Positions 24,323-57,392 of a stretch of DNA of 64,000 nt are shown piece by piece; position 1 is the first letter of the stretch; each line of letters begins with the position of its first letter. The notes beneath the pieces are model-generated. The model did no database searches and was not told the origin of the DNA. It was given only the letters and a program-made list of their open reading frames with translations. Source of the DNA: Bacteroidales bacterium (GTDB taxonomy: Bacteria; Bacteroidota; Bacteroidia; Bacteroidales; UBA932); the NCBI GenBank assembly GCA_031548545.1, contig JAVBQY010000003.1:6899-70898 (forward strand), in the 5' to 3' direction. The position numbers were made by a program, and so were the translations under genes.

Positions 24323-24327
24323 TTACA

Positions 24328-28863: not shown

Positions 28864-28871
28864 GCCATACG

Positions 28872-35511: not shown

Positions 35512-35519
35512 ACCTGATT

Positions 35520-35990
35520 ATGGCTGAAACACTCATCCTGCCCGCCAATGCCGGCAAAGAAGAAAAATACCGGGCGCTCCTGCCTCAACTCAAGGCCCTG
35601 CTCGACGGAGAGCGCGATCCTATCGCCAACATGGCCAACCTATCGGCCGCCCTCAAAGAAGTGTTCAACTTCTGGTGGGCCGGTTTTTATCTGGTCCGCG
35701 ACAATGAACTTGTACTCGGCCCCTTTCAGGGTCCCATTGCCTGCACACGCATCCGCTTCGGCCGCGGGGTTTGCGGCGCTGCCTGGGCCTCCGGAGAAAC
35801 AATCATCGTACCCGACGTGGAGGCCTTTCCCGGACATATCGCCTGCAGTTCCGCCTCTAAATCCGAAATTGTCCTGCCCTGGAAGAAAGACGGGCACATC
35901 CTGGGCGTATTGGATATAGACAGCGAACAGCTTAACCATTTTGACCGTATTGACGCCCATTACCTCGAACAAATCCTCCTCCTCCTTTAA
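35520..35990 (+). CDS. msrC: Free methionine-(R)-sulfoxide reductase (GAF domain, YebR/MsrC)
   Basis: ATG at 35520 (MAETLILP...). Near-collinear similarity to E. coli YebR: WAGFYL...LVLGPFQG.IAC.RI..GRGVCG, GHIAC...SEIVLP, GVLDIDS. Confidence 0.88.
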   Translation: MAETLILPANAGKEEKYRALLPQLKALLDGERDPIANMANLSAALKEVFNFWWAGFYLVRDNELVLGPFQGPIACTRIRFGRGVCGAAWASGETIIVPDVEAFPGHIACSSASKSEIVLPWKKDGHILGVLDIDSEQLNHFDRIDAHYLEQILLLL

Positions 35991-36029
35991 AATTTTACCG
36001 ACGAAATCGAAGTAAAATAAAAGAGCGGA

Positions 36030-36854: not shown

Positions 36855-36872
36855 TGTAATTCGCTTAAAAGA

Positions 36873-43178: not shown

Positions 43179-43181
43179 TTT

Positions 43182-44027
43182 TTATAAACCGAATGTCAAG
43201 CGAAGATTAAGACCCACAGCCATTGGCCGGAATGCGGAAACCAATCCGGTATCCAAGGCTCCTGAAGAATAAGTATATTTCGGCGGAGAAGACGTCAATG
43301 TCGAATTATCTTCGGCAAATGTCACCAGTGCTGCATCCGACTTCTTTTGCATATTATTCAGGCCATAGTTAAAATATAAACCTGCATAAAAGCTCATTCT
43401 TTCAGTAAGGGATAAACGGTATCCGGCTTCCAAATGCAATTGTACGGCTATGTTCGCTTCATAAGAGCCCGAATATTCTTTTACGCCCTTAGGGGTATTC
43501 GGGGCAAACAAGGCGTCTATATTATACTCGACGGCCTCATAATCCAGGTACACAGCATTGGTTTGGTGTCCTGCCGCCTGCGCCGTATAGTTCGTACTTA
43601 CCGGAATACCGATTTTACAGCCGCCGGCAAACTGAAAGGCGTGCTTATCTGCCAAAGGCAGGGTATAACGGCCCAACAAAGGAATTTCCAGCATCAACAA
43701 CGACTGCTTTTCAGTAAAGCCCGACAGGGTATAATCAAAACGGCCGGCAGCCTGCTGAGCGCTCAGCGAGGCCTTATTCATACGAAGTTCGGCGCCGTAA
43801 TAAGACATATCGATTCCTGAAAGGAGGCTCCACGATGTATTAAAATTATAGGCATAGCCCACTCCGCCGCCGCCGCCGAAACCATTAGACAAAGTAGCTC
43901 CGTCGACACTATAACTCAGTGTCTGGAGGCCGCCAAAGCCATTTACAGATAACTCATGCTTGTTTTGGCCGTTCACCGTATTTCCGATAAGTAATGAAAG
44001 GCCTATTATTATAATTAATCTTCTCAT
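43182..44027 (-). CDS. Small outer-membrane beta-barrel protein (paralog of 36030-36854)
   Basis: 281 aa with signal peptide. Starts HELSVNGFGGLQTLSYSV and ends VGLNLRLTFGL. Collinear with the other barrel protein. 21 nt downstream of the 1993-aa cargo gene and 3 nt upstream of the 2101-aa gene. Confidence 0.8.
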   Translation of the reverse strand: MRRLIIIIGLSLLIGNTVNGQNKHELSVNGFGGLQTLSYSVDGATLSNGFGGGGGVGYAYNFNTSWSLLSGIDMSYYGAELRMNKASLSAQQAAGRFDYTLSGFTEKQSLLMLEIPLLGRYTLPLADKHAFQFAGGCKIGIPVSTNYTAQAAGHQTNAVYLDYEAVEYNIDALFAPNTPKGVKEYSGSYEANIAVQLHLEAGYRLSLTERMSFYAGLYFNYGLNNMQKKSDAALVTFAEDNSTLTSSPPKYTYSSGALDTGLVSAFRPMAVGLNLRLTFGL

Positions 44028-44048
44028 AATGCTATTTCTTTAAACACA

Positions 44049-47000: not shown

Positions 47001-50000
47001 CATATCCGATTTACCTTTCAATGCTTCGTCCACAATATTATCATAAGCGGCCGGCTTTCCGGCAGCCGTCATATTACAACGAATGCCTATCCATAAATGC
47101 TGGGCGGGATTAATTACCGGAGGCTGGGCAAGACGAATCATGTTCCATTGCCCAATAGTCAATGTTTCTGTAATAACAGGCTGATCAACAAGCAGTGTAC
47201 CGGGCTCGGTTTCCGAACCTCCTTGCCAGATACGGATACTATAATTACAATTTTTGTCTGCCGGAATAAATTTCACCACCGTGATTTTTTCACCGTCCAT
47301 TGCCGTTAAGTCCGCCGGCTCCCAACGGGACGCAATCATAAAATCAATAGCCTGCGGCTGACCGATAGACCCTTCCATGGAAGATCCGCTATAAGCCAGC
47401 GTGTGCTCTTGCGTAGGTGATTTCCACTCCAGTCCTACGGTATACCAGTCGGGATCAGCAGGTGGAATAAGGGTAAGGCTCTTCACCGGCTCACCGCAAC
47501 GATCCACCACTAAAAGCTCCGGTGTCACTATCCGCTTGGATACCCCACAGAAATTATTATAAACGGCTTCCACCTCGTAGGTATAAGGACCCAGCGCCAA
47601 GGCAGCATCCGTGTAGCTTGTCGCCGTCACCGCAGCGGCCAACAACACATTATTTCTATATACACTGTAATGTAACAGGTTTTCCGTCCGGGCCGGCGCT
47701 GCCCAGCTCAGCTGTACGCTTCGGTCATTGACGGAATACTCCAATTCCCTTACCGGATCACATTTATCGGAAGTATATACGGAAATTTCATCCAACATAA
47801 CACCATAACCGGCATTATTCACCCCCTCAAAAGCAATCCAATAAGTTTCAGACGCTCCGGGCAGGTCTATCACACGTTCCGTCCATTCCGGCACATTGCC
47901 GGTATAAGTCGCCAACAAGGTCCATTTGGCGGTAGGCGAGTTTTTATAATAGACCCTTAATTCGTCCTGGTTTGTATTATACGCCTTTTGCGCATGCCAG
48001 AAAGTAAGGATGGGCCGTGCTACCAATGACAGATTGATGGCCGGTAATATTAATTTTGTAGTTTCCCCTTTCAGGTAAGAGTGAAAATACATTTTGTAAG
48101 CGCCGGACTTTGCCGTAGTAGGTTGTCCGCTCGTTGCATTGACAACCTCCCAGGGCGCATTGCCCAACATGTAATCATTGATCCAGCAAGCAGGGAGTGC
48201 CCTGGTATTGAAATTTTCCTCATATGGAAATACCGTAATACGGGGTGCGCATTCCTCGGGTGTTATCGCAACGGTTTTGACTACCGGGCTGGATTCGCAA
48301 TTGTCATTCCATACAGCCGTTACGGCATACACCGTATTTCCGGCAGCTGTCGCCAGATCAAGGTACTCCGTGGCGGTCACCAATGCCGGATTGACTTTCT
48401 CCCCATTTCGGTAAATATTATAACCGGCCACCCCATCATAGCCCTCCCAGATCAGCTGTACGTTCTTCCAGTTAGGATAGTTGACTACAAACTCAAGATT
48501 TTTAGGCGCTGCACAGATAGACAGCGGACCGCCGATCTGAATATCATCAATATATAAATTATTTCCGCCATTGCTCACCACTTCAAAGAATACATATCCG
48601 GCGGTTAAAGTAGCCGAAGACAAGGCAACCCTATAATCATACCAGCCGTCTTTCAGTACTGCCGGGGCTTTGGCTGCGCTCCTGTTAAAAGTCTGCACCG
48701 GGGAAAGGCCGGCAATGCTCTTGGTCGGGCTCACATATACATTCACCCGGTCCACAGAGTCCGGAAGCGCAAAATTACGATATAACTTAAAGGAAACCAG
48801 GCAATCAGCATTACTAAAATCCAGGTATGGAGAACGCAGCACGCTCTTGGCCCCCTTAGTGTAAGCCGGGCAGTTAAAGCGCAACATTTTTGAACCGGAG
48901 GCCGGAGTACAAGCCGGATTGGTACCGGAGGAGACCAACTCCCAAACCGCATCAAGCTTTCCGGAAATATTCCAGCAGGAAGAGGCAAAATCACCATCAA
49001 AATTTTCTACCACCGGCAAAGCAAGCGGAGCTACACAGGGGTCATCCGGCATCACCACCGAATAGGTGGAAGCCGGCGACTCACATTCAACCGGATTGCC
49101 ATAAAGCGCCGTAACACCATAAACATAAGTTCCCGGCCCGGAGACTTCCGTATTAAAAGTACGGTCTGTAACCATGGACGTATTTTGTTTAACACCATCT
49201 TTAAAAACATTATAACCACTCACCTGCGCTTTTTCACCATACAATTTAAAAGGTAAATTCACCGCCCGCGAACCAGAAGGAGCAAGATTCTCGGTCCAAT
49301 TGGACCAGGTTGTCCGGTTACTGGTGGTCATCGCATTGCCTACCGGCAAAGACAAGTCTGCATGAACAGTCCAAGGCAGGTTTGATTTGGAAGATCCGGC
49401 GGACAACTCTATCCAATAAGTACCGGGAGCCAAGGTACAGCCCATGCTGGCCCTTATATACATTATAGGATAAGAGGGTTGAGTAAGAGTTGCCGCGCTC
49501 ACCCTGAAGCAATTGGTAAATCCGGTCTCCGAGAAATGGTTTAAATCATCACCCCAGATCACCTTACCGCCGGCATTGGGCTTACCGTCCCAAATACGTA
49601 CATAGGCGGCATTAAAGGGCGAAACCAGAGAATAACTTGCAGAGGTATAACCACTTGGATAGGCATAAAACTCAACAAAATCAATCTTGGTTTCGTTGGT
49701 CAGGGTAAAATCATCCGTTACATGTTGGTTATTCCCTTTATTAATAGCCTTACCCTGGATCATCTGGCGCGTATTCATCTTACTGACGTCCGCCCCATTG
49801 AATCCGACCCCTAAATCCGTAACGAAACGTCCGTTATCATAAATTAAGGTCAAACTACTGGCATCACTGGCCGGCACTTCCCAATTAACTGTAAAGTTAA
49901 ACCACTCCGGCTTATGCATATTAACCGTAACGCTTGCAGGTGCATTACAGGTAGACTGAGCCTTAGCCCCCTCTGAGTAAGCCATCGCCAGAAGCAATAT

Positions 50001-50030
50001 ACCCAGGATTTGGAGAATCTGTTTTTTCAT
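44049..50030 (-). CDS. Giant T9SS-secreted repeat adhesin-like protein (Fn3-like plus choice-of-anchor-J-like supermodules, six InlB-B-repeat-like tandem repeats, type-A T9SS C-terminal sorting domain)
   Basis: 1993 aa with signal peptide MKKQILQILGILLLAMAYSEGAKAQ. Four GYNV/IY(R/K)NG...Y.Y.V.AVY.N.CES Fn3-like units. Three ENF(D/N)...W...YIDDIQIG-type modules. Six ~77-aa repeats. C-terminal ITVYPNPVAAG...GVYLLQIQL...QKIVVY. Confidence 0.9.
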   Translation of the reverse strand: MKKQILQILGILLLAMAYSEGAKAQSTCNAPASVTVNMHKPEWFNFTVNWEVPASDASSLTLIYDNGRFVTDLGVGFNGADVSKMNTRQMIQGKAINKGNNQHVTDDFTLTNETKIDFVEFYAYPSGYTSASYSLVSPFNAAYVRIWDGKPNAGGKVIWGDDLNHFSETGFTNCFRVSAATLTQPSYPIMYIRASMGCTLAPGTYWIELSAGSSKSNLPWTVHADLSLPVGNAMTTSNRTTWSNWTENLAPSGSRAVNLPFKLYGEKAQVSGYNVFKDGVKQNTSMVTDRTFNTEVSGPGTYVYGVTALYGNPVECESPASTYSVVMPDDPCVAPLALPVVENFDGDFASSCWNISGKLDAVWELVSSGTNPACTPASGSKMLRFNCPAYTKGAKSVLRSPYLDFSNADCLVSFKLYRNFALPDSVDRVNVYVSPTKSIAGLSPVQTFNRSAAKAPAVLKDGWYDYRVALSSATLTAGYVFFEVVSNGGNNLYIDDIQIGGPLSICAAPKNLEFVVNYPNWKNVQLIWEGYDGVAGYNIYRNGEKVNPALVTATEYLDLATAAGNTVYAVTAVWNDNCESSPVVKTVAITPEECAPRITVFPYEENFNTRALPACWINDYMLGNAPWEVVNATSGQPTTAKSGAYKMYFHSYLKGETTKLILPAINLSLVARPILTFWHAQKAYNTNQDELRVYYKNSPTAKWTLLATYTGNVPEWTERVIDLPGASETYWIAFEGVNNAGYGVMLDEISVYTSDKCDPVRELEYSVNDRSVQLSWAAPARTENLLHYSVYRNNVLLAAAVTATSYTDAALALGPYTYEVEAVYNNFCGVSKRIVTPELLVVDRCGEPVKSLTLIPPADPDWYTVGLEWKSPTQEHTLAYSGSSMEGSIGQPQAIDFMIASRWEPADLTAMDGEKITVVKFIPADKNCNYSIRIWQGGSETEPGTLLVDQPVITETLTIGQWNMIRLAQPPVINPAQHLWIGIRCNMTAAGKPAAYDNIVDEALKGKSDMIYDGQSWAPLSAQIARGSWCIGALAGAEDINRKGFNVYRNGVKLNVNPVFDNILKDESALPGSYNYGVSVVYDNYCESAPVEQEIVVSESPCMTPRALPFVEGFDDIQPDERKVFIKQCYKNETTETVFWENVTKTMGFPQNCYPQSGAGMLGFNSFLAKSGTRVALTLPVLDFSGNNYVLKFYMYRDEGNSMKDDRVNVYLTDKYGVYTDQTPVLTVRRNRHLEPAAPAIGWYEYTVTLDCSQMTMGRLVFEAIGLVGTDIYIDNIRVEPVTHMISSSAGAGGSISPAGATPVYEGRDQAFQITADPAYAISEVLVDGVNTPSAVAAGHYTFTNVDAAHTITASFMSSQYTIAATAGHGGAITPSGAVGALAGDDKSFVITANTGFSIGNVLVDGVPDPLAVANSSYTYTFTNINENHSIDASFTPMTYTITATSDLNGSISPSGTLSVSHGSAQSYTFTPNTGYRLSRVLVDGLDNAAAVTAGSYTFTDINTSHTIEAAFTLLTYTLNATAGNGGTIVPAGTLTADYGSSQSYSIVPDAGYKLQSVLIDGVDNAAAVTAASYTFANITADHTIAASFSQLTYTITATAGAGGTITPAGVLTRAHGTNSSYTIKPATGYKIAQVLIDGVNNAAAVSSGTYAFTAISADHTIEATFERLTYVLTATAGVGGTILPAGSVTVNHGATKNFVIIPDNYYRIAEVLIDGSNNSTAVENAYYTFTNVAANHLIEVVFVRQTPEVTGITINNEPLAVDDHMQYMAACGDNSIMLSINGAGDIKINGDPYTTGTPKQLVFDKHKADIVITATVPSVGSMSYRLVVSEALGSTAKPLYVERWGKTLAIVNNPLNNGGYTFDAFKWYRDGSTEVLETDNYIAFNNDRNSYYADVRMQSTGQWHHTCRSQVVQHATGITVYPNPVAAGALLSLSLPEGVSKVNVSVYDLAGKLIRHYADVSDSITPPENMGVYLLQIQLPDGTVETQKIVVY
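44802..46178 (-). repeat. Six in-frame tandem coding repeats (72-79 aa, about 231 bp each) inside the 1993-aa gene
   Basis: Protein residues 1285-1743. Each unit reads ..TYT(I/L)TATAG.GG(T/S)I.P(A/S)G......G....(F/Y).I.P..GY.I..VL(V/I)DG.....AV..(G/A).YTFT.I...HTI.A.F, resembling divergent InlB B-repeats. The DNA copies are diverged rather than identical. Confidence 0.85.
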
Positions 50031-50068
50031 AAGGTTATTGTAAGTTTAGTTAGCAAAATTCGATTTTA

Positions 50069-50076
50069 CAAAATTA
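50069..50076 (-). promoter_or_regulatory. -7 promoter box (TAATTTTG on the minus strand) for the four-gene T9SS cargo operon
   Basis: The plus strand reads CAAAATTA, 39 nt upstream of the ATG at 50030, in the AT-rich divergent intergenic region. Confidence 0.4.
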
Positions 50077-50214
50077 TACGAAAAAATCCAGAAAAACACA
50101 AATTTAGACCTATATAAAATCTAACAAAATAAAAATAAAAACACTCATTATCAGCTATTTATTTTTTTACGCATCTTTCTTTCCCTTTTTAAGGCTTTTT
50201 CTAAAAAGAAATAG

Positions 50215-50222
50215 TAAATTTG
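50215..50222 (+). promoter_or_regulatory. -7 promoter box TAAATTTG for the TPR-LuxR regulator
   Basis: TAnnTTTG match 18 nt upstream of the ATG at 50240. Confidence 0.45.
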
Positions 50223-50239
50223 TGATACGCTATTTTAAT

Positions 50240-51970
50240 ATGAAAAAAATTATTTTCCTTTGTTGCTATCTCATCATTAGTCCGGCGCTACTCCAGGGTG
50301 TAGAGACAGGCCACAACCGGCAAGATTTTGACTCTTTAACAGCTAAAATAAAACACATTAGCTTTCATAGCCGGTCAAAGGCCTTATTACTCATGCAGGA
50401 ACTAAGGCAGTTAGCCCAAGATCATCCGGACAGCCTTAATTTAAAAAAGGAATGTCTTTACTATGAAGCTGAAATAGCTTATGCACAGGGGATTTATGAC
50501 TCCACCCTGATTCAACGCCTCCAGTATGAATTTCAGCGTACAAACAAAAGCAAACAGCCATTCCAATATGCTATTTTACAATATGCCATAGCGTTAAACC
50601 ACCTGACCAACGGAAATTATGCAGAGGCCTTCAGCATGACCCTGCATTCCCTGGAACAGTTCACGCAACTAAAAGACAGCGCATTTATAACGGAGACGAA
50701 TCTTTCATTAGGGCGGGTCTGTAGTTATATTGAAAGTTATAGAATGGCCGAAGATTATTACCAGAGAGCCCGAAAATTCACGAATCCGTCACGGAGCGAA
50801 TACTTTAGAATATGTTCCAATATATATACCACCCGCCTGGAGGACCTTGATGTCTTAGTAGACTCACTGCAAAACCTGATACCGGTCTTTGAGCGCCTGC
50901 AAGATACCTCTTCCATTGCCTCTACCTATTTAAATATAGGCTTGACCTATGCAGCCCAACAAAAATATGATAAAACCTATGAAAATTACCTGGCGGCCCA
51001 AAAGCTGCATCCATATATAGACAATCAGTTGTTTTCTATTTCTCTATGGCAAAACCTCGGCACCTACTACCTGCATATCGATAATCTCAAGGAGTCCTAT
51101 AAATATTTTCAAACGGCTAAAAATCTGGCCGTTCAATCGGGCAACCCCTATTTTATCGCCAGTATCTTACCCTCGCTGGCCGTCTTACACGAGAAACTAC
51201 ACCATAATGATAGCGCCTATATTTACCTGAAAGAATATAACGCCCTCAGAAATAAGCTATCAAGCAGCGCCAACCCCATTGAGGCGTATCAGGCCTATGT
51301 CAATGTCTTCCTGGCCGCCTCTCAGAAAGAGTTAACAATCAAGGAGCAGGAAATTTTACTACAAAACACCTATTTCATTGTCACCCTGATTTCCGCTACC
51401 GGTATTATTTTACTTATTATTTCCTGGGTAGTGATCTTGCAACAGCAAAAACGCCACATCCGCCAACAGACCCTATTAAAGGAGGCTGAAAACAGAGACC
51501 TTGAAGAAAGACTTCAAAGCAAGCAGGAAATTGAGCGGCTTCAAAAGGCTCAAATCCACACGCAAAGCAGGGAACTCACCACACATGCACTGGCCTTGTC
51601 CAACAAAAATCAAATTCTGCAACAAATTTCCAACATCCTTGACCGGGTACATACAGAACCTGCGGCCATTGAGGATATCCGCAAGATTATCAAAAACAAT
51701 ATCGAAACCGATAAGGCCTGGAAAAATTTCGTGGTGCACTTTGACAAGGTGCATCCTAATTTTTTCGACCGGCTACAGCAAATAAGCAACGAGCTTTCAA
51801 AAAACGACATCCGGTTGAGCGCCTATTTTCGTATAGGCATGACATCCAAACAAATCGCCCAAATGATCAATGTATCGGCAGATTCCATCTATATGCACCG
51901 TTGCCGGTTAAAGAAGAAGTTGAATCTCACGGACGAGCAGGATCTGGATGATTTTATTCAACATATATAA
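50240..51970 (+). CDS. Membrane-spanning one-component regulator: periplasmic TPR sensor, one TM helix, coiled coil, LuxR-type HTH
   Basis: ATG at 50240 (MKKIIFLCCYLIISPALLQG signal); the listed 50222 start is a GTG inside the -7 box. TPR-like repeats through ~aa 340. TM YFIVTLISATGIILLIISWVVIL (nt 51371-51439). Coiled coil EAENRDLEERLQSKQEIERLQKAQ. HTH DIRLSAYFRIGMTSKQIAQMINVSADSIYMHRCRLKKKL. Confidence 0.85.
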   Translation: MKKIIFLCCYLIISPALLQGVETGHNRQDFDSLTAKIKHISFHSRSKALLLMQELRQLAQDHPDSLNLKKECLYYEAEIAYAQGIYDSTLIQRLQYEFQRTNKSKQPFQYAILQYAIALNHLTNGNYAEAFSMTLHSLEQFTQLKDSAFITETNLSLGRVCSYIESYRMAEDYYQRARKFTNPSRSEYFRICSNIYTTRLEDLDVLVDSLQNLIPVFERLQDTSSIASTYLNIGLTYAAQQKYDKTYENYLAAQKLHPYIDNQLFSISLWQNLGTYYLHIDNLKESYKYFQTAKNLAVQSGNPYFIASILPSLAVLHEKLHHNDSAYIYLKEYNALRNKLSSSANPIEAYQAYVNVFLAASQKELTIKEQEILLQNTYFIVTLISATGIILLIISWVVILQQQKRHIRQQTLLKEAENRDLEERLQSKQEIERLQKAQIHTQSRELTTHALALSNKNQILQQISNILDRVHTEPAAIEDIRKIIKNNIETDKAWKNFVVHFDKVHPNFFDRLQQISNELSKNDIRLSAYFRIGMTSKQIAQMINVSADSIYMHRCRLKKKLNLTDEQDLDDFIQHI

Positions 51971-51973
51971 TAA

Positions 51974-52042
51974 GGTATAAAAAAACCGGCGAGGAAAATT
52001 CCCGCCGGTTTTTTTATTGATTAAATACCTGTCGCTTATTGG
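51974..52042. repeat. Left copy of a 69-bp direct repeat (terminator plus 7-nt nifJ 3' fragment)
   Basis: Aligns to 53800-53868 at an offset of exactly 1826 bp, 67/69 identical. 51980-52042 is identical to 53806-53868 (63 bp) by hand alignment. Confidence 0.9.
51979..52015. terminator. Bidirectional rho-independent terminator (serves the LuxR-type gene on + and the DUF262 gene on -)
   Basis: A7, stem CCGGCGAGG / CCCGCCGG, then T7. Confidence 0.8.
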
Positions 52043-53755
52043 TTAGATTTTCCAAATACCGCAGGCGGTTTTCGCCAGACTGGCCTGACGATGCTGTATC
52101 ATCCTTATATTCCATTCTTCTCCGGATATCGTATTACTTAAAGCATAACGACTCGTTTTATATACTTCCAGCTTTTCGGAGAACGATTTACGAGCGGCAT
52201 CTTTATTATTTTTGGAGGGTTCTAATAAAGATAAATTACCAATCATGTATACATTACGCAGATGTTCATCTTCTGTAAATTTTCCTGCCCACAACTTATC
52301 CAAACTTTCTGGCAAAACATGTTCTATAGTTGCATCATCCGTAATATAGTCGGCCTTAACCCCATTGTGCAATTGGGCTTCAATCTTGTATAAAATATAG
52401 CGGGCTATCTTCCTTTGTTGACTATTACTTGTATTGACACTCTTTAATTCAAAGTAATTTTTGAAAGTATGATCATCCAAATATAGCTCTTTCAGGTCTT
52501 CTATCACCTGGGTGGCCGATAACAATGTCTTATCATAGATCTTGTTGGCCGTCTTGTTATAAGCTTTTTCCATTTCATTGGTTTGCAACTTCCCTATCAC
52601 ATTATATCTAAATGAAATGGCCACTACGGCACTCAAGACTTTTTTAAATTCGGAAATTGACAATTTTGCATAGGCAGCCATTAGCAAAGGCTGGCATAAG
52701 GTAACCCTAAATAAATTAAGACTGTTAACATCGTCTTTTATAGCCTTATCCCCTCCCCACAATTCGTCTTCAGGATTACTTAATGCATTATAAATATAAG
52801 AGTATTCCTCCAGGTGTTCCAAGAGATCTACAACATCTTGCGGAGTCCTTACCAGTCTTTTTATACCTTTAAACAATTGCTCTTTACTAACTAAAGAACT
52901 CCTGGTATTCAGGTAATACCTCAAAAAAACAGGAAATTTCTTTAACCCTACCGCACCCACTATTTTTTTCCATTGCCCTTTTACCAGTTCAAGATCACTG
53001 GGCGTTTTTGCAACCAACGAAAATAGAAAATTTTTCAACAGATCCGTCGATGTAAGTTCTATTCCTCTGGAATTCAAAGTTTCAAAAACGGTATAGGCAT
53101 TTAACTCATCAACCACCGTGATTTGAATAAATTTCAATAACTCACCTACGGTTTTATCTAAAAATGCGGCTATCTTCTCTCCATTTTTTTCGTCCTTAAA
53201 CAAGAGTTCTAACTGTCCTCTATAATATTCGTAAGCATCCCATAATAATTTTTCGGAGTCTGAAAGTTTATTGTAATTAATGGGAGTCTTAAAATTCAAT
53301 AAACGCTGTTGGTAAAAACCATCATTATTCTCATTCAAAAATAATTTACTGGAATAGGACAGGGAAGAAGGATCTTTCTGACCTATATACTTTTTCATCA
53401 ATAACTCGGCCCTTTCATTATTATCAGCCGTATCAGCTCCCTCATCCGCCAACTTCCGGATTTTGTCTATAACTGCCAGGACAATGATACTTAAAGTAGT
53501 AAAACGCTGCTGACCATCAATAATCCAATATTGTTTATCCGACTCCCCGCCCTTTATCTGTAAAACAATAGAGCCCATATAATGAGCTGACAAATCATTT
53601 TTTACATTCAATAAATCATTCCATAAATCTTCCCATTGATCCTGTTCCCAAGAATAATCACGCTGGAATTGAGGAACAAAATAAATCTTGCCGTTTCCTA
53701 AAATATCATTTAACGTAAACGTTTTAGTATCCAGTAAGTTTGATGTTGAAGCCAT
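52043..53755 (-). CDS. GmrSD-like type IV (modification-dependent) restriction enzyme candidate: N-terminal DUF262 ParB-like NTPase plus C-terminal DUF1524 His-Me finger nuclease
   Basis: ATG at 53755 (MASTSNLL...); the listed 53779 start is a TTG inside the -7 box. Motifs PQFQRDYSW, IIDGQQRFTTL, FETLNSRGIELTSTDLLKN, and C-terminal TIEHVLPES ... GNLSLLEPSKNN. Confidence 0.88.
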   Translation of the reverse strand: MASTSNLLDTKTFTLNDILGNGKIYFVPQFQRDYSWEQDQWEDLWNDLLNVKNDLSAHYMGSIVLQIKGGESDKQYWIIDGQQRFTTLSIIVLAVIDKIRKLADEGADTADNNERAELLMKKYIGQKDPSSLSYSSKLFLNENNDGFYQQRLLNFKTPINYNKLSDSEKLLWDAYEYYRGQLELLFKDEKNGEKIAAFLDKTVGELLKFIQITVVDELNAYTVFETLNSRGIELTSTDLLKNFLFSLVAKTPSDLELVKGQWKKIVGAVGLKKFPVFLRYYLNTRSSLVSKEQLFKGIKRLVRTPQDVVDLLEHLEEYSYIYNALSNPEDELWGGDKAIKDDVNSLNLFRVTLCQPLLMAAYAKLSISEFKKVLSAVVAISFRYNVIGKLQTNEMEKAYNKTANKIYDKTLLSATQVIEDLKELYLDDHTFKNYFELKSVNTSNSQQRKIARYILYKIEAQLHNGVKADYITDDATIEHVLPESLDKLWAGKFTEDEHLRNVYMIGNLSLLEPSKNNKDAARKSFSEKLEVYKTSRYALSNTISGEEWNIRMIQHRQASLAKTACGIWKI

Positions 53756-53776
53756 AATTTTAGAAGAATAATTATA

Positions 53777-53784
53777 CAAATATA
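53777..53784 (-). promoter_or_regulatory. -7 promoter box (TATATTTG on the minus strand) for the DUF262 gene
   Basis: The plus strand reads CAAATATA, 22 nt upstream of the ATG at 53755. It lies inside the cassette, between the gene and the right repeat copy. Confidence 0.45.
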
Positions 53785-53799
53785 AAGATTAATAGCTTT

Positions 53800-53868
53800 G
53801 GTAACAAAAAACCGGCGAGGAAAATTCCCGCCGGTTTTTTTATTGATTAAATACCTGTCGCTTATTGG
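53800..53868. repeat. Right copy of the 69-bp direct repeat (native nifJ 3' end plus terminator)
   Basis: See the left copy. Here CTTATTGG is the reverse complement of the last nifJ codons (..CAA TAA). Confidence 0.9.
53805..53841. terminator. Rho-independent terminator after nifJ (duplicate of 51979-52015)
   Basis: Same hairpin and flanking A/T runs as the left copy. Confidence 0.8.
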
Positions 53869-56800
53869 GCAGCCAGGCGTTTATAGCTGTTGTAGCGCCA
53901 TTTGGCGAACTCTTCGGTCAGGCCGAACAGTTCCTGCGCTTCTGCAGGGAAGGTCTTGGTCAGCGAGCTGTAACGCACTTCACTCTTCAGGAAGTCCTGG
54001 AACTTGCTCCAATCCGGTTCTTTGCTATCCAGGGTGAAGGGGTTCTTGCCTTCTTTCTCGAGCAGCGGGTTGAAACGGTAGCAGTGCCAGTAACCACATT
54101 CTACAGCCAACTTCTCTTCACGTTGCGACACGCCCATGCCACCTCTTAAGCCGTGGTTGATACAGGGAGCGTAAGCAATGATCAATGAAGGACCGTCATA
54201 AGCTTCGGCCTCTTTCAGGGCGTTGAAGTACTGAGACTGGTTGGCGCCCATAGCTACCTGGGCTACATACACATAGCCATAGCTCATGGCCATCATGCCA
54301 AGGTCTTTCTTGCGAATGCGTTTACCGGAAGTAGCAAATTTAGCCACTGCGCCTGCAGGAGTCGATTTTGAAGACTGTCCGCCGGTGTTGGAATACACTT
54401 CGGTATCCATTACCAGTACGTTTACGTTCTCGCCGGAAGCCAGTACATGGTCCAGGCCGCCGTATCCGATATCGTAAGCCCAACCGTCGCCACCAAAGAT
54501 CCACTGTGAGCGTACTACCAGATAATCTTTCAACTGATAAATTTCCTTGCAGATATCACAAGCGCATTTCTCTACCAGAGGGATCAACTTGTCGGCAATT
54601 TCACGGGTCTTGGCAGCATCATCGCGATGGCTGATCCACTCGGCAAACAAGGCTTTTTCTTCGGAAGTGCATTGGCTGCATTCCTGGCCCTGGGTCATCA
54701 GGTGAGCCAAACGGTCACGCATACGTTCGCTACCCATGCGCATACCCAAACCAAACTCGGCATTGTCTTCGAACAAGGAGTTGGCCCAAGCCGGACCCTG
54801 TCCGTTTTTGTTGCAGGTATAAGGTGATGCGGGGAATGAACCGCCATAAATAGACGAACAGCCCGTAGCGTTGGCTACCATCATACGGTCACCGAACAGC
54901 TGGGTGATGGTTTTAATATAAGGTGTCTCACCGCAACCGGCACAGGCTCCGGAGAACTCGAACAAAGGTTGGGCGAATTGGCTGGGCTTAACACTGTGTT
55001 TCTTATCCATCACCGTGTCTTTGTAGCCCACATGGGTGTGCAGGTAGTCAAAATGTTTCTGCTCGCCCAACTGAGATTCCAGGGGTTTCATCACCAAGGC
55101 CTTGGTCTTAGCAGGACAAACATCGGCACAGTTACCGCAACCGGAACAGTCAAGCGGGGTAACCTGTATACGGAATTTGTAGTCTTTGCATGCAGCCGCA
55201 CCCTGGATGGTTTCCAGTCCGCCGGGTACTGCGGCCAGCTCTTCTTCGGTAAGAAGGAAGGGACGGATGGCAGCGTGGGGACAAACATAAGAACACTGGT
55301 TACACTGGATACAGTTGGCCGGAACCCATTCGGGCACATGTACGGCAATACCGCGTTTTTCAAAGGCGGCGGAACCGCAGGGCATAGTACCGTCTTCGTA
55401 GTTCAGGAAAGCGCTCACCGGAAGGTCGTCGCCATTCTGGGCATTCACTACATCGGCCACGTGTTTCACCCATTCGGGCGCCAGGCGGTTGTGTGTGTCG
55501 GCCTCGAACTTACCGCTCAATGAAGCCCAATCGGCTGGAACCTCTACCTTTACGGCATTGTCTCCGGCATCTACGGCGGCATAGTTCATCTTCACGATGT
55601 CTTCACCTTTCTTGCCGTAGCTCTTGTCAATGGCTTTCTTCATTTCTTTCACCGCCTGGGTGTAGTCAATCACATTGGCGATTTTAAAGAAGGCAGCCTG
55701 CAGAATGGTATTGGTACGGTTGCCCAAACCGATCTTATCGGCAATAGCCGTAGCATCGATGATATAGAAGTTGATCTTCTTATCGGCCAATGTACGTTTC
55801 ACAAAGTCGGGCAGGTGTTTCTTCGTATCTTCCACACTGTACATGCTGTTGAGCAGGAATGTACCGCCGGGTTTGATACCTTTCAGGATATCATACTTAC
55901 CCAGGTAAGAGAATACGTGGCAGGCCACAAAATCGGGGGTAGATACCAGGTAGGGAGAGGTAATGGGGTTATCACCGAAGCGCAGGTGCGAGCAGGTGAA
56001 ACCGCCGGACTTTTTAGAGTCATAAGCAAAATAAGCCTGGCAGTATTTAGGCGTGGTTTCGCCGATGATCTTGATGGTATTTTTGTTGGCGCCTACCGTA
56101 CCGTCAGAGCCCAAACCGTAGAACTTACATTCGTAAGTACCTTTCTTGGCCAGGCTGATTTCGGCTTTCTGAGGCAGTGATTTGAACGTCACGTCATCAA
56201 CAATACCCACGGTGAAACCGTTTTTGGGTTCATTGAGGGCCAGGTTTTCAAATACGGAAAGGATCTGTGCAGGCGTCGTATCTTTAGATGAAAGACCGTA
56301 ACGGCCGCCTACTACTACAGGTGCATTGGCTTGTCCGTACAGCACTTCTTTCACATCAAGGTACAAGGGTTCGCCGTTGGCGCCGGGTTCTTTCGTACGG
56401 TCAAGTACGGCAATGCGTTTAACCGTTGCAGGAAGTACACGCAGGAAATATTTGGCAGAGAACGGACGGTAGAGATGAACGGTGATCACCCCTACTTTTT
56501 CGCCTTTGGCATTCAGGTGATCAACGGTTTCTTTGATGGTATCGCAAACAGAGCCCATAGCGATAACTACACGGTCTGCATCAGCAGCACCATAGTAGGT
56601 GAAAGGCAGGTACGAACGGCCGGTCAGTTCGCTGATCTCTCCCATATAGCGGGCTACGATATCGGGAACTGCATCATAGAAAGGATTAGAAGCTTCACGA
56701 CCCTGGAAGTATACATCCGGGTTCTGCGCCGTACCGCGGGTTACCGGCTTATTGGGGTTCAAAGCGCGGCCGCGGAAAGCAGCCATGGCCTTGTCACTCA

Positions 56801-57392
56801 CCATATCTTTGAGGTCTTCGGCATCAATCACTTCGATCTTCTGGATCTCATGTGATGTACGGAAACCGTCAAAAAAGTTCAGGAAAGGAACGCGTGATTT
56901 CAGTGCTGCCAGGTGGGATACAGCCGAAAGGTCCATCACTTCCTGTACACCGCCTGCAGCCAACATGGCAAAACCGGTCTGACGGGCAGCCATTACGTCC
57001 TGATGGTCTCCGAAAATAGACAAAGCCTGTGAAGCCAATGCGCGGGCCGATACATGGAACACGGCGGGTAATAATTCACCGGCAATTTTGTACATATTGG
57101 GGATCATCAACAGCAAACCCTGGGAAGCGGTGAAGGTAGTCGTAAGGGCGCCGGCCTGCAAAGAACCGTGTACGGCACCGGCTGCTCCGCCTTCGCTTTG
57201 CATTTCGAGCACCTTTACGGTTTCACCCCAGAGGTTTTTCTTGCCATAGGCAGCCCATTCGTCCACGTACTCCGCCATGGTCGATGAAGGTGTGATCGGA
57301 TAAATAGCAGCAGCTTCACTGAACATATAAGCAATGTGGGCTGCGGCATAGTTACCGTCACAGGTAATAAATTTCTTTTCTTTCTTACTCAT
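53862..57392 (-). CDS. nifJ: Pyruvate:ferredoxin (flavodoxin) oxidoreductase
   Basis: 1176 aa. Two 4Fe-4S ferredoxin motifs CIQCNQCSYVCP and CSGCGNCADVCP. TPP-binding GGDGWAYDIGYGGLDH. Collinear with single-polypeptide PFOR. Confidence 0.95.
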   Translation of the reverse strand: MSKKEKKFITCDGNYAAAHIAYMFSEAAAIYPITPSSTMAEYVDEWAAYGKKNLWGETVKVLEMQSEGGAAGAVHGSLQAGALTTTFTASQGLLLMIPNMYKIAGELLPAVFHVSARALASQALSIFGDHQDVMAARQTGFAMLAAGGVQEVMDLSAVSHLAALKSRVPFLNFFDGFRTSHEIQKIEVIDAEDLKDMVSDKAMAAFRGRALNPNKPVTRGTAQNPDVYFQGREASNPFYDAVPDIVARYMGEISELTGRSYLPFTYYGAADADRVVIAMGSVCDTIKETVDHLNAKGEKVGVITVHLYRPFSAKYFLRVLPATVKRIAVLDRTKEPGANGEPLYLDVKEVLYGQANAPVVVGGRYGLSSKDTTPAQILSVFENLALNEPKNGFTVGIVDDVTFKSLPQKAEISLAKKGTYECKFYGLGSDGTVGANKNTIKIIGETTPKYCQAYFAYDSKKSGGFTCSHLRFGDNPITSPYLVSTPDFVACHVFSYLGKYDILKGIKPGGTFLLNSMYSVEDTKKHLPDFVKRTLADKKINFYIIDATAIADKIGLGNRTNTILQAAFFKIANVIDYTQAVKEMKKAIDKSYGKKGEDIVKMNYAAVDAGDNAVKVEVPADWASLSGKFEADTHNRLAPEWVKHVADVVNAQNGDDLPVSAFLNYEDGTMPCGSAAFEKRGIAVHVPEWVPANCIQCNQCSYVCPHAAIRPFLLTEEELAAVPGGLETIQGAAACKDYKFRIQVTPLDCSGCGNCADVCPAKTKALVMKPLESQLGEQKHFDYLHTHVGYKDTVMDKKHSVKPSQFAQPLFEFSGACAGCGETPYIKTITQLFGDRMMVANATGCSSIYGGSFPASPYTCNKNGQGPAWANSLFEDNAEFGLGMRMGSERMRDRLAHLMTQGQECSQCTSEEKALFAEWISHRDDAAKTREIADKLIPLVEKCACDICKEIYQLKDYLVVRSQWIFGGDGWAYDIGYGGLDHVLASGENVNVLVMDTEVYSNTGGQSSKSTPAGAVAKFATSGKRIRKKDLGMMAMSYGYVYVAQVAMGANQSQYFNALKEAEAYDGPSLIIAYAPCINHGLRGGMGVSQREEKLAVECGYWHCYRFNPLLEKEGKNPFTLDSKEPDWSKFQDFLKSEVRYSSLTKTFPAEAQELFGLTEEFAKWRYNSYKRLAAQ

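What the first reader, a model, noticed from the sequence alone, without database searches (positions are those of the whole stretch)
51974..53868. Single-gene GmrSD-like defence cassette bracketed by a 69-bp direct repeat that duplicates the nifJ 3' end and its terminator
- Repeat: nt 51974-52042 and 53800-53868 are the same sequence at an offset of exactly 1826 bp. By my hand alignment 67/69 positions match, and the last 63 bp (51980-52042 = 53806-53868) are identical.
- Content of each copy: an A-run, GC hairpin and T-run forming a bidirectional terminator, plus CTTATTGG. In the right copy CTTATTGG is the reverse complement of the last nifJ codons (Gln-stop). The left copy therefore carries an orphan 7-nt piece of the nifJ 3' end.
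- Junction: the DUF262 stop codon (52043-52045) starts at the very first base after the left repeat.
- Cargo: exactly one gene lies between the copies. It has its own TATATTTG -7 box (53777-53784, minus strand). It is visibly AT-rich; my spot counts of single 60-nt lines give about 25-37% G+C inside versus about 50% in nifJ.
- Protein: QFQRDYSW and IIDGQQRFTTL (DUF262 ParB-like NTPase) plus IEHVLPES...GNLSLLEPSKNN (DUF1524 His-Me finger). This is the GmrSD/BrxU/SspE-type architecture used for modification-dependent restriction.
- No integrase, transposase or IS ends are present.

The geometry fits an insertion that duplicated its target. It equally fits a cassette that can be gained or lost by recombination between 63-bp repeats. 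A defence gene docking at a terminator without a resident recombinase does not match any standard mobile-element class that I know.
Basis: partly seen in the sequence, partly recalled or inferred. Interest (0 to 1): 0.75.

Follow-up and report, generated by a model that had tools for sequence, protein, structure and literature searches.

The report
Restriction gene inserted between duplicated terminators
A single horizontally acquired anti-phage restriction gene (GmrSD-like, HEC-06 type) sits between two identical 63-bp copies of the local terminator; this is a new example of the already described but mechanistically unsolved "insertion with long target duplication" of restriction genes.

Summary
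Window 51974-52042 and 53800-53868 match at 67/69 positions. The core 51980-52042 = 53806-53868 is an exact 63-bp repeat, spaced 1826 bp apart, and is the only long non-coding repeat in the 64 kb.

Between the copies lies one intact, AT-rich gene (G+C 0.355 versus 0.49 for the window). It is a full-length HEC-06-type GmrSD-like enzyme (PADLOC E = 1.9e-206) with the DGQQR and EH motifs intact. No recombinase was found among 41 ORFs scanned across the window.

The interpretation needs two corrections.
- The geometry does match a described class: "insertion with long target duplication" of restriction genes (Nobusato 2000; Furuta 2010). That class includes solo Type IV genes.
- The repeat is homologous to the region downstream of the LuxR-type gene in a relative, including the first 13 nt of a gldA-like gene. 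The supposed "orphan nifJ piece" is therefore ambiguous: 6 of its 7 nt are a microhomology.

No true empty site exists in the available data. The gene sits at a lineage-specific junction of two synteny blocks.

Homologues elsewhere are enriched for flanking direct repeats (12/76 versus 5/243 controls). In three loci the copies differ almost only at synonymous sites (12/14). This favours homology-anchored, single-crossover integration over an in-situ staggered cut.

Verdict: new member of a known kind, of moderate interest.

The parts
51980..52042 (.). Left copy of the exact 63-bp direct repeat R. The extended 69-bp version starts at 51974. It contains the bidirectional terminator hairpin 51977-52017 and serves the LuxR-type gene (+) and GmrSD (-).
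53806..53868 (.). Right copy of R. The extended version starts at 53800. It is the terminator of nifJ, and its last 7 nt overlap the nifJ Gln-stop codons.
52043..53755 (-). Cargo gene: a 570-aa GmrSD-like Type IV restriction enzyme of the HEC-06 subfamily. DGQQR is at residues 80-84, IEHVLPE at 477-483 and GNLSLLEPSKNN at 506-517.
   Evidence: Pfam; PADLOC HEC-06 E = 1.9e-206 over 4-570; translation; invariant columns; functional data on HEC-06 from bioRxiv 10.1101/2024.01.29.577857
53756..53808 (-). 50-nt upstream region of the cargo plus the junction. It holds a Bacteroidetes-type -7 box TATATTTG (53777-53784). A possible -33 TTTG (53805-53808) lies 20 nt upstream and straddles the R/cargo junction: three T from the terminator T-run plus the G that is one of the two mismatches of the 69-bp repeat.
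   Evidence: sequence. The promoter consensus is from memory (Bayley et al. 2000). This is inference, not tested.
52030..52041 (+). TGTCGCTTATTG inside R, repeated at 53856-53867. It is a remnant of the start of a gldA-like ABC gene (ATGTCGCTTATTG in relative L102). Its reverse complement supplies CAATAA, the last two codons of nifJ.
50222..51970 (+). Left neighbour: a TPR plus LuxR/GerE (SusR_C-type) regulator. Its stop is at 51968-51970, 9 nt before the R core.
53862..57392 (-). Right neighbour: nifJ (pyruvate:ferredoxin/flavodoxin oxidoreductase, 1176 aa). Homology to relatives ends exactly at its stop codon.
35991..53861 (.). Context: a lineage-specific 17.9-kb interval between the GAF gene and nifJ. 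It holds OMP, a T9SS protein of 2101 aa, OMP, a T9SS protein of 1993 aa, the LuxR-type gene, R, GmrSD and R. In the 92% and 88% nifJ relatives only 1-2 small ORFs lie between ComEC/GAF and nifJ.

Best explanation
**What it is (shown).** It is a solo, intact, horizontally acquired GmrSD-like Type IV restriction gene of the HEC-06 subfamily, in a Bacteroidales genome. HEC-06 is an experimentally validated anti-phage family; its defence needs the DGQQR NTPase motif and the EH His-Me nuclease motif. The gene lies in the short convergent intergenic region between a LuxR-type regulator gene and nifJ. It is flanked by two identical 63-bp copies of that region's bidirectional terminator. After the event, all three genes still have a terminator.

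**What class it belongs to.** This is an instance of "insertion with long target duplication", the class described for restriction-modification genes of Types I-IV.

**How it arose (inferred).** The repeat was most likely not made by a transposase-like staggered cut. More likely, a non-replicating DNA molecule integrated by a single homologous crossover. That molecule was a circularised fragment taken up from, or excised in, a close relative. It carried the cargo plus about 63-69 bp of the local sequence. A one-ended, homology-anchored illegitimate join would give the same product. Either route leaves the homology segment once on each side of the cargo.

**What follows (inferred).** The same repeats allow precise RecA- or slippage-mediated loss, re-circularisation and possibly amplification. 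The gene can therefore be gained and lost within a species without any recombinase of its own.

**Function (inferred from the family).** NTP-dependent cleavage of modified phage DNA.
For: **Identity**
- Pfam GmrSD_N and GmrSD_C.
- PADLOC HEC-06, E = 1.9e-206, full length.
- Motifs present and invariant across 32 homologues.
- HEC-06 defence and its loss in Q79A/R80A and E471A/H472A mutants (10.1101/2024.01.29.577857).

**Foreign origin**
- G+C 0.355 vs 0.49; GC3 0.36 vs 0.57.
- Homologues at 57-76% identity occur across Bacteroidota, Campylobacterota, Leptospirales and Ignavibacteria.

**Class**
- Direct repeat longer than 30 bp, unique in the window, no mobility genes found, and the repeat spans a neighbour's stop codon.
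- These are the criteria and the typical picture in PMC2853133.

**Recurrence in the family**
- 12 of 76 genome loci carry a flanking direct repeat, against 5 of 243 shifted controls (Fisher P = 3.5e-5).
- The repeat sequences are all different and mostly unique to their locus. Examples:
  - L010: 75 nt, the first 75 nt of hsdM.
  - L007: 21 nt spanning a stop codon.
  - L079: 103 nt.
  - L107, the 73%-identical homologue: 74 nt, the last 74 nt of hsdR including its stop.

**Mechanism**
- In L010, L079 and L107 the two copies differ at 14 positions, and 12 of these are synonymous.
- P = 3e-7 if all changes were neutral. P = 1e-4 for in-situ duplication followed by neutral decay of the orphan copy.
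- The copies are therefore two diverged functional alleles, donor and recipient. A crossover with DNA that already carried local homology predicts exactly this.
- Experimental precedent: circles with one-sided homology integrate by single crossover and leave 109-950-bp duplications (PMC3240628).
- An HFIR model has been proposed for analogous orphan arrays (PMC5361080).
- In the window, the two mismatches sit at the outer edge of the 69-bp repeat, as expected for donor/recipient differences outside the crossover.
- ComEC is encoded in the window.
Against: - For the window itself, the 63-bp copies are identical. They carry no allelic signal, so the mechanism is carried over from homologous loci.
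- The model needs a conspecific donor in which the cargo already lay next to R. It therefore does not explain the first joining of cargo and R.
- No empty site and no such donor were found.
- 63 bp is short for RecA-dependent recombination, and the 21-bp repeat in L007 is too short.
- L079 is not a clean case. The intact 3' end of the gene follows the upstream copy.
- 64 of the 76 usable loci show no flanking repeat.
- The end of R lies within 1-7 nt of an older block junction (the CAATAA microhomology). I cannot explain this near-coincidence.
- The modification specificity and the activity of this particular protein are untested.
Confidence: 0.5

Rival explanations
1. True in-situ target duplication. 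The target was opened by two nicks or breaks about 63-69 bp apart, or a replication fork switched template (microhomology-mediated). The foreign 1.76-kb fragment was joined in and the gap was filled, copying the terminator region. This is the reading implied by Kobayashi's group, who suggested double-strand breakage by the restriction enzyme.
For: - The copies are 63/63 identical with sharp boundaries.
- The cargo is exactly one gene, with 50 nt upstream and 0 nt downstream.
- No donor with the cargo next to R is known.
- A/T-rich microhomologies are possible at both junctions: the T-run with TTTG, and CAATAA.
- The terminator hairpin could stall forks.
- Repeat lengths in the family vary from 21 to 103 bp.
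Against: - In the three homologous loci where the repeat overlaps coding sequence, 12 of 14 differences between copies are synonymous (P = 1e-4 under duplication plus decay of the orphan copy).
- The bases nearest the cargo/R junction are mismatched (AC vs TA). That is not a typical microhomology join.
- No experimental precedent for 60-400-bp staggered insertion appears in the papers I read.
Confidence: 0.25
2. Site-specific integration by a recombinase acting in trans. The cassette would be a minimal, non-autonomous integrative element (CIME-like), with attL and attR being the two R copies. A tyrosine or serine recombinase encoded elsewhere in the genome would mobilise it.
For: - One homologue (L023) is flanked by a full tRNA-Pro and an 88%-identical copy of its 3' 57 nt. 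This is the classical signature of integrase-mediated insertion, yet with no integrase in the 2-kb insert.
- Identity segments of 45-60 bp are typical of such att sites (PMC2853133).
Against: - No recombinase was found among the ORFs scanned in the 64-kb window.
- R is not a tRNA or tmRNA gene.
- Repeat sequences and lengths differ in every locus, and they are pieces of whatever gene is adjacent: hsdM start, hsdR end, membrane-protein stop. This is not expected for a site-specific system.
- The cargo has no conserved non-coding ends among homologues.
Confidence: 0.08
3. The tandem arrangement is an assembly resolution artefact. The real molecules would be LuxR-R-nifJ plus a separate 1826-bp circle (cargo plus one R), or the cargo lies elsewhere next to another R copy.
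For: - The source is a metagenome-assembled Bacteroidales contig.
- The Logan k=31 unitig stops 30 nt into R at both ends. That pattern fits both the integrated form and circle-plus-empty-site.
- The same sample also holds a related strain (L103).
Against: - A 63-bp repeat is shorter than the reads and the large k-mers used by metagenome assemblers, so the joins are normally read-supported. This rests on general knowledge and was not checked on reads.
- A 1.8-kb circle with no replication gene would not be kept at genome-like coverage.
- Analogous integrated structures exist in 7 independent Logan assemblies (L106-L112) and in several genomes.
Confidence: 0.07
4. R is a dispersed REP-like terminator element, and the gene merely landed between two pre-existing copies. 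Furuta et al. call this class "chance insertion between repeated sequences".
For: - Some cyanobacterial homologues (L049, L050) are flanked by repeats that also occur in tandem.
- The rest of the source genome could not be searched.
Against: - There are only two copies in 64 kb.
- The hairpin 23-mer gives one chance hit in JGI metagenomes, inside a high-GC ccmH-like gene, and none in viral contigs.
- R is collinear with the single-copy region downstream of the LuxR-type gene in a relative.
Confidence: 0.02

Closest known systems
"Insertion with long target duplication" of restriction-modification genes (Nobusato et al. 2000 Gene 259:99; Furuta, Abe & Kobayashi 2010 NAR, PMC2853133)
   Same: - Restriction gene(s) and nothing else in the insert, with no mobility gene.
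- Direct repeats longer than 30 bp that are copies of local sequence and are unique.
- Repeats that span the stop or start codon of a neighbour.
- Insert with deviant G+C.
- Already seen for a solo Type IV gene (mcrA).
   Different: - This case is a GmrSD/HEC-06 gene in Bacteroidales; the published cases are mostly Proteobacteria, Campylobacterota and cyanobacteria.
- The duplicated target is an entire bidirectional terminator.
- The defining empty-site comparison is not available here.
- The published work leaves the mechanism open (DSB suggested). The synonymous-biased differences found here point to a donor/recipient crossover.
HEC-06 / GmrSD-like Type IV restriction enzymes (Payne et al. 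bioRxiv 10.1101/2024.01.29.577857; GmrSD, BrxU, SspE)
   Same: - DUF262 with DGQQR, a helical linker and a DUF1524 His-Me finger in one polypeptide of about 570 aa.
- Full-length match to the HEC-06 profile.
- Close homologues (70-73% identity) are embedded in type I R-M operons, as that paper describes.
   Different: - Here the gene is solo, between a regulator gene and nifJ. It is not embedded in another defence system.
- Similarity to SspE is weak (E about 1e-4), and BrxU is not detected by phmmer.
- Activity and modification specificity are untested.
Single-crossover (Campbell-type) integration and homology-facilitated illegitimate recombination (de Vries & Wackernagel 2002; Prudhomme et al. 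2002; Amarir-Bouhram et al. 2011, PMC3240628; T6SS effector-immunity arrays, PMC5361080)
   Same: - Foreign DNA anchored by a short stretch of local homology.
- The product carries a variable-length duplication of the homology.
- The copies are donor and recipient alleles.
- No element-encoded recombinase is needed.
   Different: - Those are laboratory or inferred events with homologies of 100 bp or more.
- Here the homology is 63-69 bp (21-103 bp in the family), and the process is inferred from sequence only.
Integron gene cassettes, CIMEs and minimal mobile elements
   Same: Single promoter-poor or solo genes that are gained and lost at a fixed site, bracketed by repeated sequence.
   Different: - No attC-type imperfect palindrome; the repeats are identical copies of host sequence.
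- No IntI or other recombinase was found among the ORFs scanned in the window.
- Minimal mobile elements (from memory: Saunders & Snyder 2002) are exchanged by double crossover in flanking genes and leave no duplication.

Membership tests
GmrSD-like Type IV restriction enzyme, HEC-06 subfamily | N-terminal DUF262/GmrSD_N (ParB-like NTPase) domain with the DGQQR motif | tested here: met
   - PF03235 E = 2e-39 over residues 15-245.
- DGQQR at residues 80-84, invariant in 32 homologues.
GmrSD-like Type IV restriction enzyme, HEC-06 subfamily | C-terminal DUF1524/GmrSD_C His-Me finger with the (D/E)H...N motif | tested here: met
   - PF07510 E = 1.5e-21 over residues 428-562.
- IEHVLPE at 477-483 and GNLSLLEPSKNN at 506-517.
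- E478, H479 and N507 are invariant.
- This corresponds to EHICP in HEC-06.
GmrSD-like Type IV restriction enzyme, HEC-06 subfamily | Full-length similarity to the HEC-06 profile rather than to BrxU, SspE or classical GmrSD | tested here: met
   - PADLOC PDLC04154 HEC-06, E = 1.9e-206, residues 4-570 on profile positions 3-566 of 569.
- SspE models reach only about 1e-17 on the N-terminus.
- PDB: 9jfl, a DUF262 protein, E = 9e-22; SspE E = 1.8e-4.
GmrSD-like Type IV restriction enzyme, HEC-06 subfamily | Anti-phage activity or modification-dependent DNA cleavage | not testable with these tools
   Known only for the tested HEC-06 representative.
Insertion with long target duplication (criteria of Furuta et al. 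2010) | The insert contains restriction gene(s), is shorter than 20 kb and holds no mobility-related gene | tested here: met
   - The insert is 1763 bp and holds one GmrSD gene.
- No recombinase was found among the ORFs scanned in the window.
Insertion with long target duplication (criteria of Furuta et al. 2010) | Flanking direct repeats longer than 30 bp and of low copy number | tested here: met
   - 63 bp exact, or 69 bp at 97%.
- Two copies in 64 kb.
- Absent from the metagenome and viral scans apart from one chance hit.
- The rest of the source genome was not searchable.
Insertion with long target duplication (criteria of Furuta et al. 2010) | A related genome has an empty site whose single copy aligns with both repeats | tested here: inconclusive
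   - No relative has the LuxR-type gene next to nifJ.
- The 85% LuxR-type relative has one R-homologous region, followed by a gldA-like gene.
- The 92-86% nifJ relatives have one unrelated terminator and other neighbours.
Integrase-mediated genomic island or CIME | att repeats at a tRNA/tmRNA or other conserved integrase target, with a recombinase in cis or demonstrable in trans | tested here: not met
   - R is an intergenic terminator, not a tRNA.
- No integrase was found among the ORFs scanned in 64 kb.
- A recombinase acting in trans cannot be excluded.
- One homologue, L023, does show tRNA-Pro att-like repeats.
Integron gene cassette | attC imperfect inverted-repeat sites that differ between cassettes, next to intI/attI | tested here: not met
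   - The two flanks are identical copies of a GC-rich perfect terminator hairpin.
- No IntI-type protein appears among the ORFs scanned.
DNA transposon / IS | Terminal inverted repeats, a short (<15 bp) target duplication and a transposase | tested here: not met
   - No terminal inverted repeats of the cargo. The only inverted matches are the hairpin arms themselves.
- The duplication is 63 bp.
- There is no transposase.

The most novel reading that the evidence does not exclude
HEC-06/GmrSD genes may be self-promoting cassettes. In this reading, the nuclease (or the breaks it provokes at hairpins or stalled forks) creates the recombinogenic ends. Those ends drive the gene's own insertion at gene boundaries and terminators, producing long duplications, and later its excision as a circle. 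That would amount to a recombinase-free, virus-like life cycle for solo Type IV restriction genes, as Kobayashi's group hypothesised for R-M systems but never demonstrated.
Probability: 0.07. Interest if true: 0.8.

Novelty: new member of a known kind. Interest (0 to 1): 0.4.

Why it matters
Many defence genes sit in variable "hotspots" with no mobile-element genes nearby. How they get there is an open question. This locus is a clean, recent example: a 63/63-identical repeat and an unameliorated G+C. It belongs to a 25-year-old, mechanistically unexplained pattern.

The comparison across homologues adds a testable clue. Where the repeat overlaps coding sequence, the two copies differ almost only synonymously. 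They are therefore donor and recipient alleles, not a fresh duplication. This points to ordinary host recombination on a short anchor: either a single crossover with a circularised fragment, or homology-facilitated illegitimate recombination. That would be the route by which solo restriction genes hop between related genomes and between homologous type I R-M operons. It would also explain why the repeats span start and stop codons.

If confirmed on a larger set, this would explain both the gain and the easy loss of such genes without any dedicated mobility machinery.

Tried and rejected
1. **Empty site.**
   - The exact nifJ product is not on record.
   - Relatives with nifJ at 92, 88, 88, 87 and 86% identity all have a different single terminator and different downstream genes: L087, L088, L105, L104, L082-85.
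   - The 85% LuxR-type relative (L102) has a gldA-like gene downstream.
   - So no empty site exists. Instead the locus turned out to be a junction of two synteny blocks.
2. **Dispersed-repeat test.** The hairpin 23-mer gave one chance match in JGI metagenomes, inside a high-GC ccmH-like ORF, and none in viral contigs.
3. **Excess of ~1.8-kb contigs among homologues.** I suspected circles or flanking repeats.
   - The contigs have no terminal overlap or shared k-mers.
   - They break about 30 nt beyond the gene ends, inside flanks conserved with L002 and with the gut-Bacteroidales locus hflX-DUF4954-GmrSD-fumarase.
   - The cause is therefore allelic or strain variation of the gene, not repeats.
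4. **Vector search.** No plasmid or phage record has a homologue above 40% identity. No viral-contig relative was found.
5. **Conserved cassette ends.** The non-coding flanks of the closest homologues share nothing with the window.
6. **Microhomology at the junctions.** GGTA lies 2 nt away from the core at the left edge of R, and AATAA-like motifs follow the stop codon in homologues. These are suggestive but not decisive.
7. **L079 as a clean parallel.** Rejected: the intact 3' end of the gene follows the upstream copy, so its history is more complex.


Full report
**1.

The repeat finder reports 51974-52042 and 53800-53868 as a 69-nt direct repeat at 97% identity, spaced 1826 bp apart. The last 63 nt (51980-52042 = 53806-53868) are identical. 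They occur exactly twice in the window even when 3 mismatches are allowed, with none expected in shuffles. A scan of all 64 kb finds no other long non-coding repeat.

Each copy contains A7-CCGGCG(A)GG-loop-CCCGCCGG-T7. It folds at -23 to -27.5 kcal/mol (z = -3.8 to -5.5) on either strand, as a bidirectional intrinsic terminator.

The junction positions are as follows:
- The LuxR-type ORF stops at 51968-51970, 9 nt before the core.
- The cargo ORF stops at 52043-52045, directly after the left copy, and starts at ATG 53753-53755.
- nifJ stops at 53862-53864, inside the right copy.

The cargo (52043-53805) has G+C 0.355, against 0.49 for the window and 0.513 for nifJ. GC3 is 0.36 against 0.57.

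A Logan unitig from run SRR23967709 equals window 52013-53835 exactly. That is the unique interval plus k-1 = 30 nt of the repeat on each side. An independent assembly therefore sees the same four junctions. A k=31 graph cannot, however, distinguish the integrated form from an empty site plus a circle.

**2. The gene**

The 570-aa product matches Pfam GmrSD_N (2e-39) and GmrSD_C (1.5e-21). It matches the PADLOC HEC-06 profile over its full length (E = 1.9e-206).

DGQQR (residues 80-84), IEHVLPE (477-483) and GNLSLLEPSKNN (506-517) are present. They are invariant in an alignment of 32 homologues.

HEC-06 is a GmrSD-like protein shown to protect against phages. Mutations in DGQQR and in the EH motif abolish that protection. 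The same study notes that GmrSD-like genes are often embedded in Hma and type I R-M loci (bioRxiv 10.1101/2024.01.29.577857).

The nearest solved structure by sequence is a DUF262 protein, 9jfl (E = 9e-22). SspE is a weak match. The defence call is therefore well supported by homology. The activity of this protein is untested.

**3. Surroundings and relatives**

The window is from a Bacteroidales metagenome-assembled contig of 89.6 kb. Its giant secreted proteins carry T9SS sorting domains. Pfam scans of 41 ORFs, most of the non-overlapping ORFs of 150 aa or more, found no integrase or transposase. They did find RecR, RecQ, a beta-glucan PUL, ComEC, GAF and housekeeping genes.

I looked for an empty site and found none.

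*The nifJ side.* Relatives have one unrelated terminator and different downstream genes. These are L087 (92% identity), L088 and L105 (88%), L104 (87%) and L082-85 (86%). DNA homology between the window and L087 stops exactly at the nifJ stop codon. In L087 and L105, ComEC/GAF lies just beyond one or two small ORFs downstream of nifJ. In the window, 17.9 kb separates GAF (35427-35990) from nifJ. That interval holds two OMP genes, two giant T9SS proteins, the LuxR-type gene, R, GmrSD and R.

*The LuxR side.* The only close relative of the LuxR-type gene is at 85% amino-acid identity (GCA_031551045.1, L102). It has the same T9SS-OMP-T9SS-LuxR block, at 77% DNA identity over window 40263-51963. 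There the block is followed by a gldA-like ABC gene. The nifJ gene of that genome lies on another contig.

The 3' part of R (TTTTTTATTGATTAAATACCTGTCGCTTATTG) aligns with the L102 sequence from the terminator T-run to ATGTCGCTTATTG, the first 13 nt of the ABC gene. The local alignment scores 27, against 15.5 +/- 2.3 for shuffles, and 0 of 2000 shuffles reach it. R is therefore native to the LuxR side and ends in a remnant of a gene start.

The reverse complement of that remnant, CAATAA, is also the native end of nifJ in the 92% and 88% relatives. The "7-nt orphan piece of nifJ" in the left copy is thus mostly a 6-nt microhomology shared by both parents. The nifJ|R joint looks like an older illegitimate junction of two synteny blocks. 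The end of the duplication lies 1 nt beyond that microhomology. I cannot explain this near-coincidence.

**4. This geometry is a described class**

Nobusato et al. (2000) and Furuta, Abe and Kobayashi (2010, PMC2853133) described "insertion with long target duplication". In that class, restriction-modification genes of Types I-IV are inserted with no mobility gene and are flanked by long direct repeats of the target. The published repeats run from 45-47 bp to over 400 bp. They often span a neighbour's start or stop codon, and the inserts often have deviant G+C. One case is a solo Type IV mcrA gene. The authors leave the mechanism open, suggesting double-strand breakage and a virus-like cycle of insertion, amplification and release. 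They do not discuss illegitimate or homology-anchored recombination.

The present locus meets their criteria except for the empty-site comparison, which is unavailable.

**5. The pattern recurs in this protein family**

A scan of one genome per species returned 80 loci with homologues at 45-76% identity, from several phyla. I compared 1 kb upstream with 1 kb downstream of the gene. Of 76 usable loci, 12 gave a direct-repeat hit. Of 243 equally spaced control positions in the same loci, 5 did (Fisher P = 3.5e-5). The repeat sequences are all different, and in most loci they occur only as the two flanking copies.

| Locus | Repeat | What it corresponds to |
|---|---|---|
| L010 | 75 nt, 93% | first 75 nt of hsdM; orphan copy upstream |
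| L007 | 21 nt | spans the stop codon of the upstream gene |
| L079 | 103 nt, 96% | 3' part of a CobQ-like gene |
| L068 | 61 nt, 85% | not assigned |
| L053 | 42 nt | not assigned |
| L029 | 42 nt | not assigned |
| L023 | 57 nt, 88% | 3' part of a full tRNA-Pro; integrase-type signature but no integrase |
| L049/L050 | 37 and ~96-107 nt | cyanobacterial repeats, tandem in L050 |
| L106-L112 | 74 nt, 93% | last 74 nt of hsdR including its stop; the orphan copy abuts hsdS |

The last row is the 73%-identical homologue P0006, seen on seven independent Logan contigs. It is embedded in hsdR-GmrSD-hsdS-deaminase-hsdM.

Most homologues have no repeat. One example is the human-gut Bacteroidales locus hflX-DUF4954-GmrSD-fumarase.

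**6. A clue to mechanism**

In the three loci where the repeat overlaps coding sequence, the copies differ mainly at synonymous sites:

| Locus | Differences | Synonymous |
|---|---|---|
| L010 | 5 | 5 |
| L107 | 5 | 4 |
| L079 | 4 | 3 |
| Total | 14 | 12 |

Random substitutions in these sequences would be synonymous 20% of the time. An in-situ duplication followed by neutral decay of the orphan copy predicts about 34%. The observed excess has P = 3e-7 and P = 1e-4 respectively.

The orphan copy is therefore a piece of a different, functional allele. In other words, the "duplication" is donor flank plus recipient flank.

This is what a single (Campbell-type) crossover predicts, if it occurs between the chromosome and a circularised fragment carrying the cargo plus a short piece of the neighbouring gene. 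One-ended homology-facilitated illegitimate recombination predicts the same. Experimentally, non-replicating circles with one-sided homology integrate in E. coli mainly by single crossover and leave duplications of 109-950 bp (PMC3240628). An HFIR model has been proposed for orphan immunity-gene arrays (PMC5361080).

For L107 the model is concrete. A fragment [last 74 nt of hsdR - GmrSD] comes from an operon like L003, where the gene sits between hsdR and hsdS without a repeat. It then integrates into the hsdR end of another operon.

**7. Application to the window**

What is shown:
- one intact HEC-06 gene;
- identical 63-bp repeats;
- a low-G+C cargo;
- no recombinase among the ORFs scanned;
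- R native to the LuxR side;
- a position at a variable block junction.

What is inferred:
- The cassette entered, or re-entered, this chromosome by a crossover within about 63-69 bp of R, carried on the incoming DNA. The TA/AC difference at the outer edge of the 69-bp version is then a donor/recipient difference outside the crossover.
- The repeats now allow precise loss, circle formation and possibly amplification.
- The duplication gives GmrSD a terminator and leaves the LuxR-type gene and nifJ with theirs.
- A -33-like TTTG, 20 nt upstream of the TATATTTG box, is formed at the R/cargo junction. The promoter consensus is from memory.

Weaknesses:
- The window's copies are identical, so they carry no allelic signal.
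- The model needs a conspecific donor with the cargo next to R, which I could not find.
- It does not explain the first joining of cargo and R. For that step, an illegitimate (microhomology or template-switch) event remains the likely origin, and this is also the main rival for the whole structure.

**8. Rivals**

- In-situ staggered break or template switch: 0.25.
- Recombinase acting in trans: 0.08. L023 shows this happens in the family, but repeat sequences and lengths vary with the local gene.
- Assembly artefact or episomal circle: 0.07. This needs reads to settle.
- Dispersed repeat: 0.02.

No plasmid, phage or viral-contig vector was found.

**9. Verdict**

The locus is a new member of a known kind: a GmrSD/HEC-06 example, in Bacteroidales, of insertion with long target duplication. 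Interest is moderate. The locus itself is ordinary for its class. The family-wide enrichment and the synonymous-biased differences between repeat copies give a testable explanation for a long-standing puzzle: how restriction and defence genes move without mobility genes.

Noticed in passing
window 35991-53861; L087, L105, L102: The whole 17.9-kb stretch between GAF and nifJ is lineage-specific. It holds two OMP genes, T9SS giants of 2101 and 1993 aa, the LuxR-type gene and the GmrSD cassette. Relatives with 92% and 88% nifJ have only 1-2 small ORFs between ComEC/GAF and nifJ. In GCA_031551045.1 the T9SS-LuxR block sits next to a gldA-like ABC gene. The block's right end in the window is 13 nt into that gene, joined to nifJ at a CAATAA microhomology.
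   Followed up: partly
L107 2976-3049 and 4884-4957 (also L106, L108-L112): The 73%-identical homologue is embedded in hsdR-GmrSD-hsdS-deaminase-hsdM. It is flanked by a 74-nt direct repeat that is the last 74 nt of hsdR including its stop. The orphan copy abuts the hsdS start. Four of the 5 differences between copies are synonymous.
   Followed up: yes
L010 5822-5896 and 7748-7822: In a Saprospiraceae genome the homologue lies upstream of hsdM. It is flanked by a 75-nt repeat of the hsdM 5' end. All 5 differences between copies are third-position synonymous changes.
   Followed up: yes
L023 5831-5906 and 7911-7967: A solo homologue lies between a complete tRNA-Pro(TGG) and an 88%-identical copy of its 3' 57 nt. 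These are att-like repeats of an integrative element, but the 2-kb insert has no integrase. It may be a decayed or trans-mobilised mini-island.
   Followed up: partly
homologue list; L098-L101, L089-L097: About 13 of 120 homologues are known only from contigs of 1800-1900 bp. These break about 30 nt beyond the gene ends inside conserved flanks. In gut Bacteroidales the gene sits in a fixed locus (hflX-DUF4954-GmrSD-fumarase) with many alleles. The gene therefore appears far more variable than its flanks, through diversifying selection or allele exchange.
   Followed up: partly
L050 5842-5974 and 7789-8074; L049: In Coleofasciculus genomes the homologue is flanked by a ~96-nt unit present once or twice upstream and 3-4 times in tandem downstream. 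This could be an amplified flanking repeat or a local repeat family.
   Followed up: no
window 53805-53808 and 53777-53784 (minus strand): A possible -33 TTTG for the GmrSD promoter is formed by three T of the duplicated terminator's T-run plus the G that is one of the two mismatches between the 69-bp copies. It lies 20 nt upstream of the TATATTTG -7 box.
   Followed up: no
L103 (Logan SRR23967709) vs L001: The same sequencing run contains both the window's GmrSD cassette (100% identical) and the 85%-identical LuxR-type allele of the GCA_031551045.1 type. Two related Bacteroidales strains or species therefore co-occur in the sample. This is relevant to assembly chimerism and to donor availability.
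   Followed up: no
window 15422-30623: A polysaccharide utilisation locus: a NrtR/AraR-like regulator, a PKD protein, SusD, a SusC-like TonB receptor, GH30, GH16, two GH3 and a GH5-CBM6. It is probably a beta-glucan PUL.
   Followed up: no
window 44863-45590: Four copies of a 231-nt periodic unit (69-71% identical to the reference copy over the 35-nt aligned segment) lie inside the 1993-aa T9SS protein gene. These are repeated protein domains, not related to R.
   Followed up: no
window 33343-35511: A ComEC (competence, DNA-uptake channel) gene lies 16.5 kb from the cassette. This is compatible with DNA uptake, but ComEC is widespread and this is not evidence of natural transformation.
   Followed up: no
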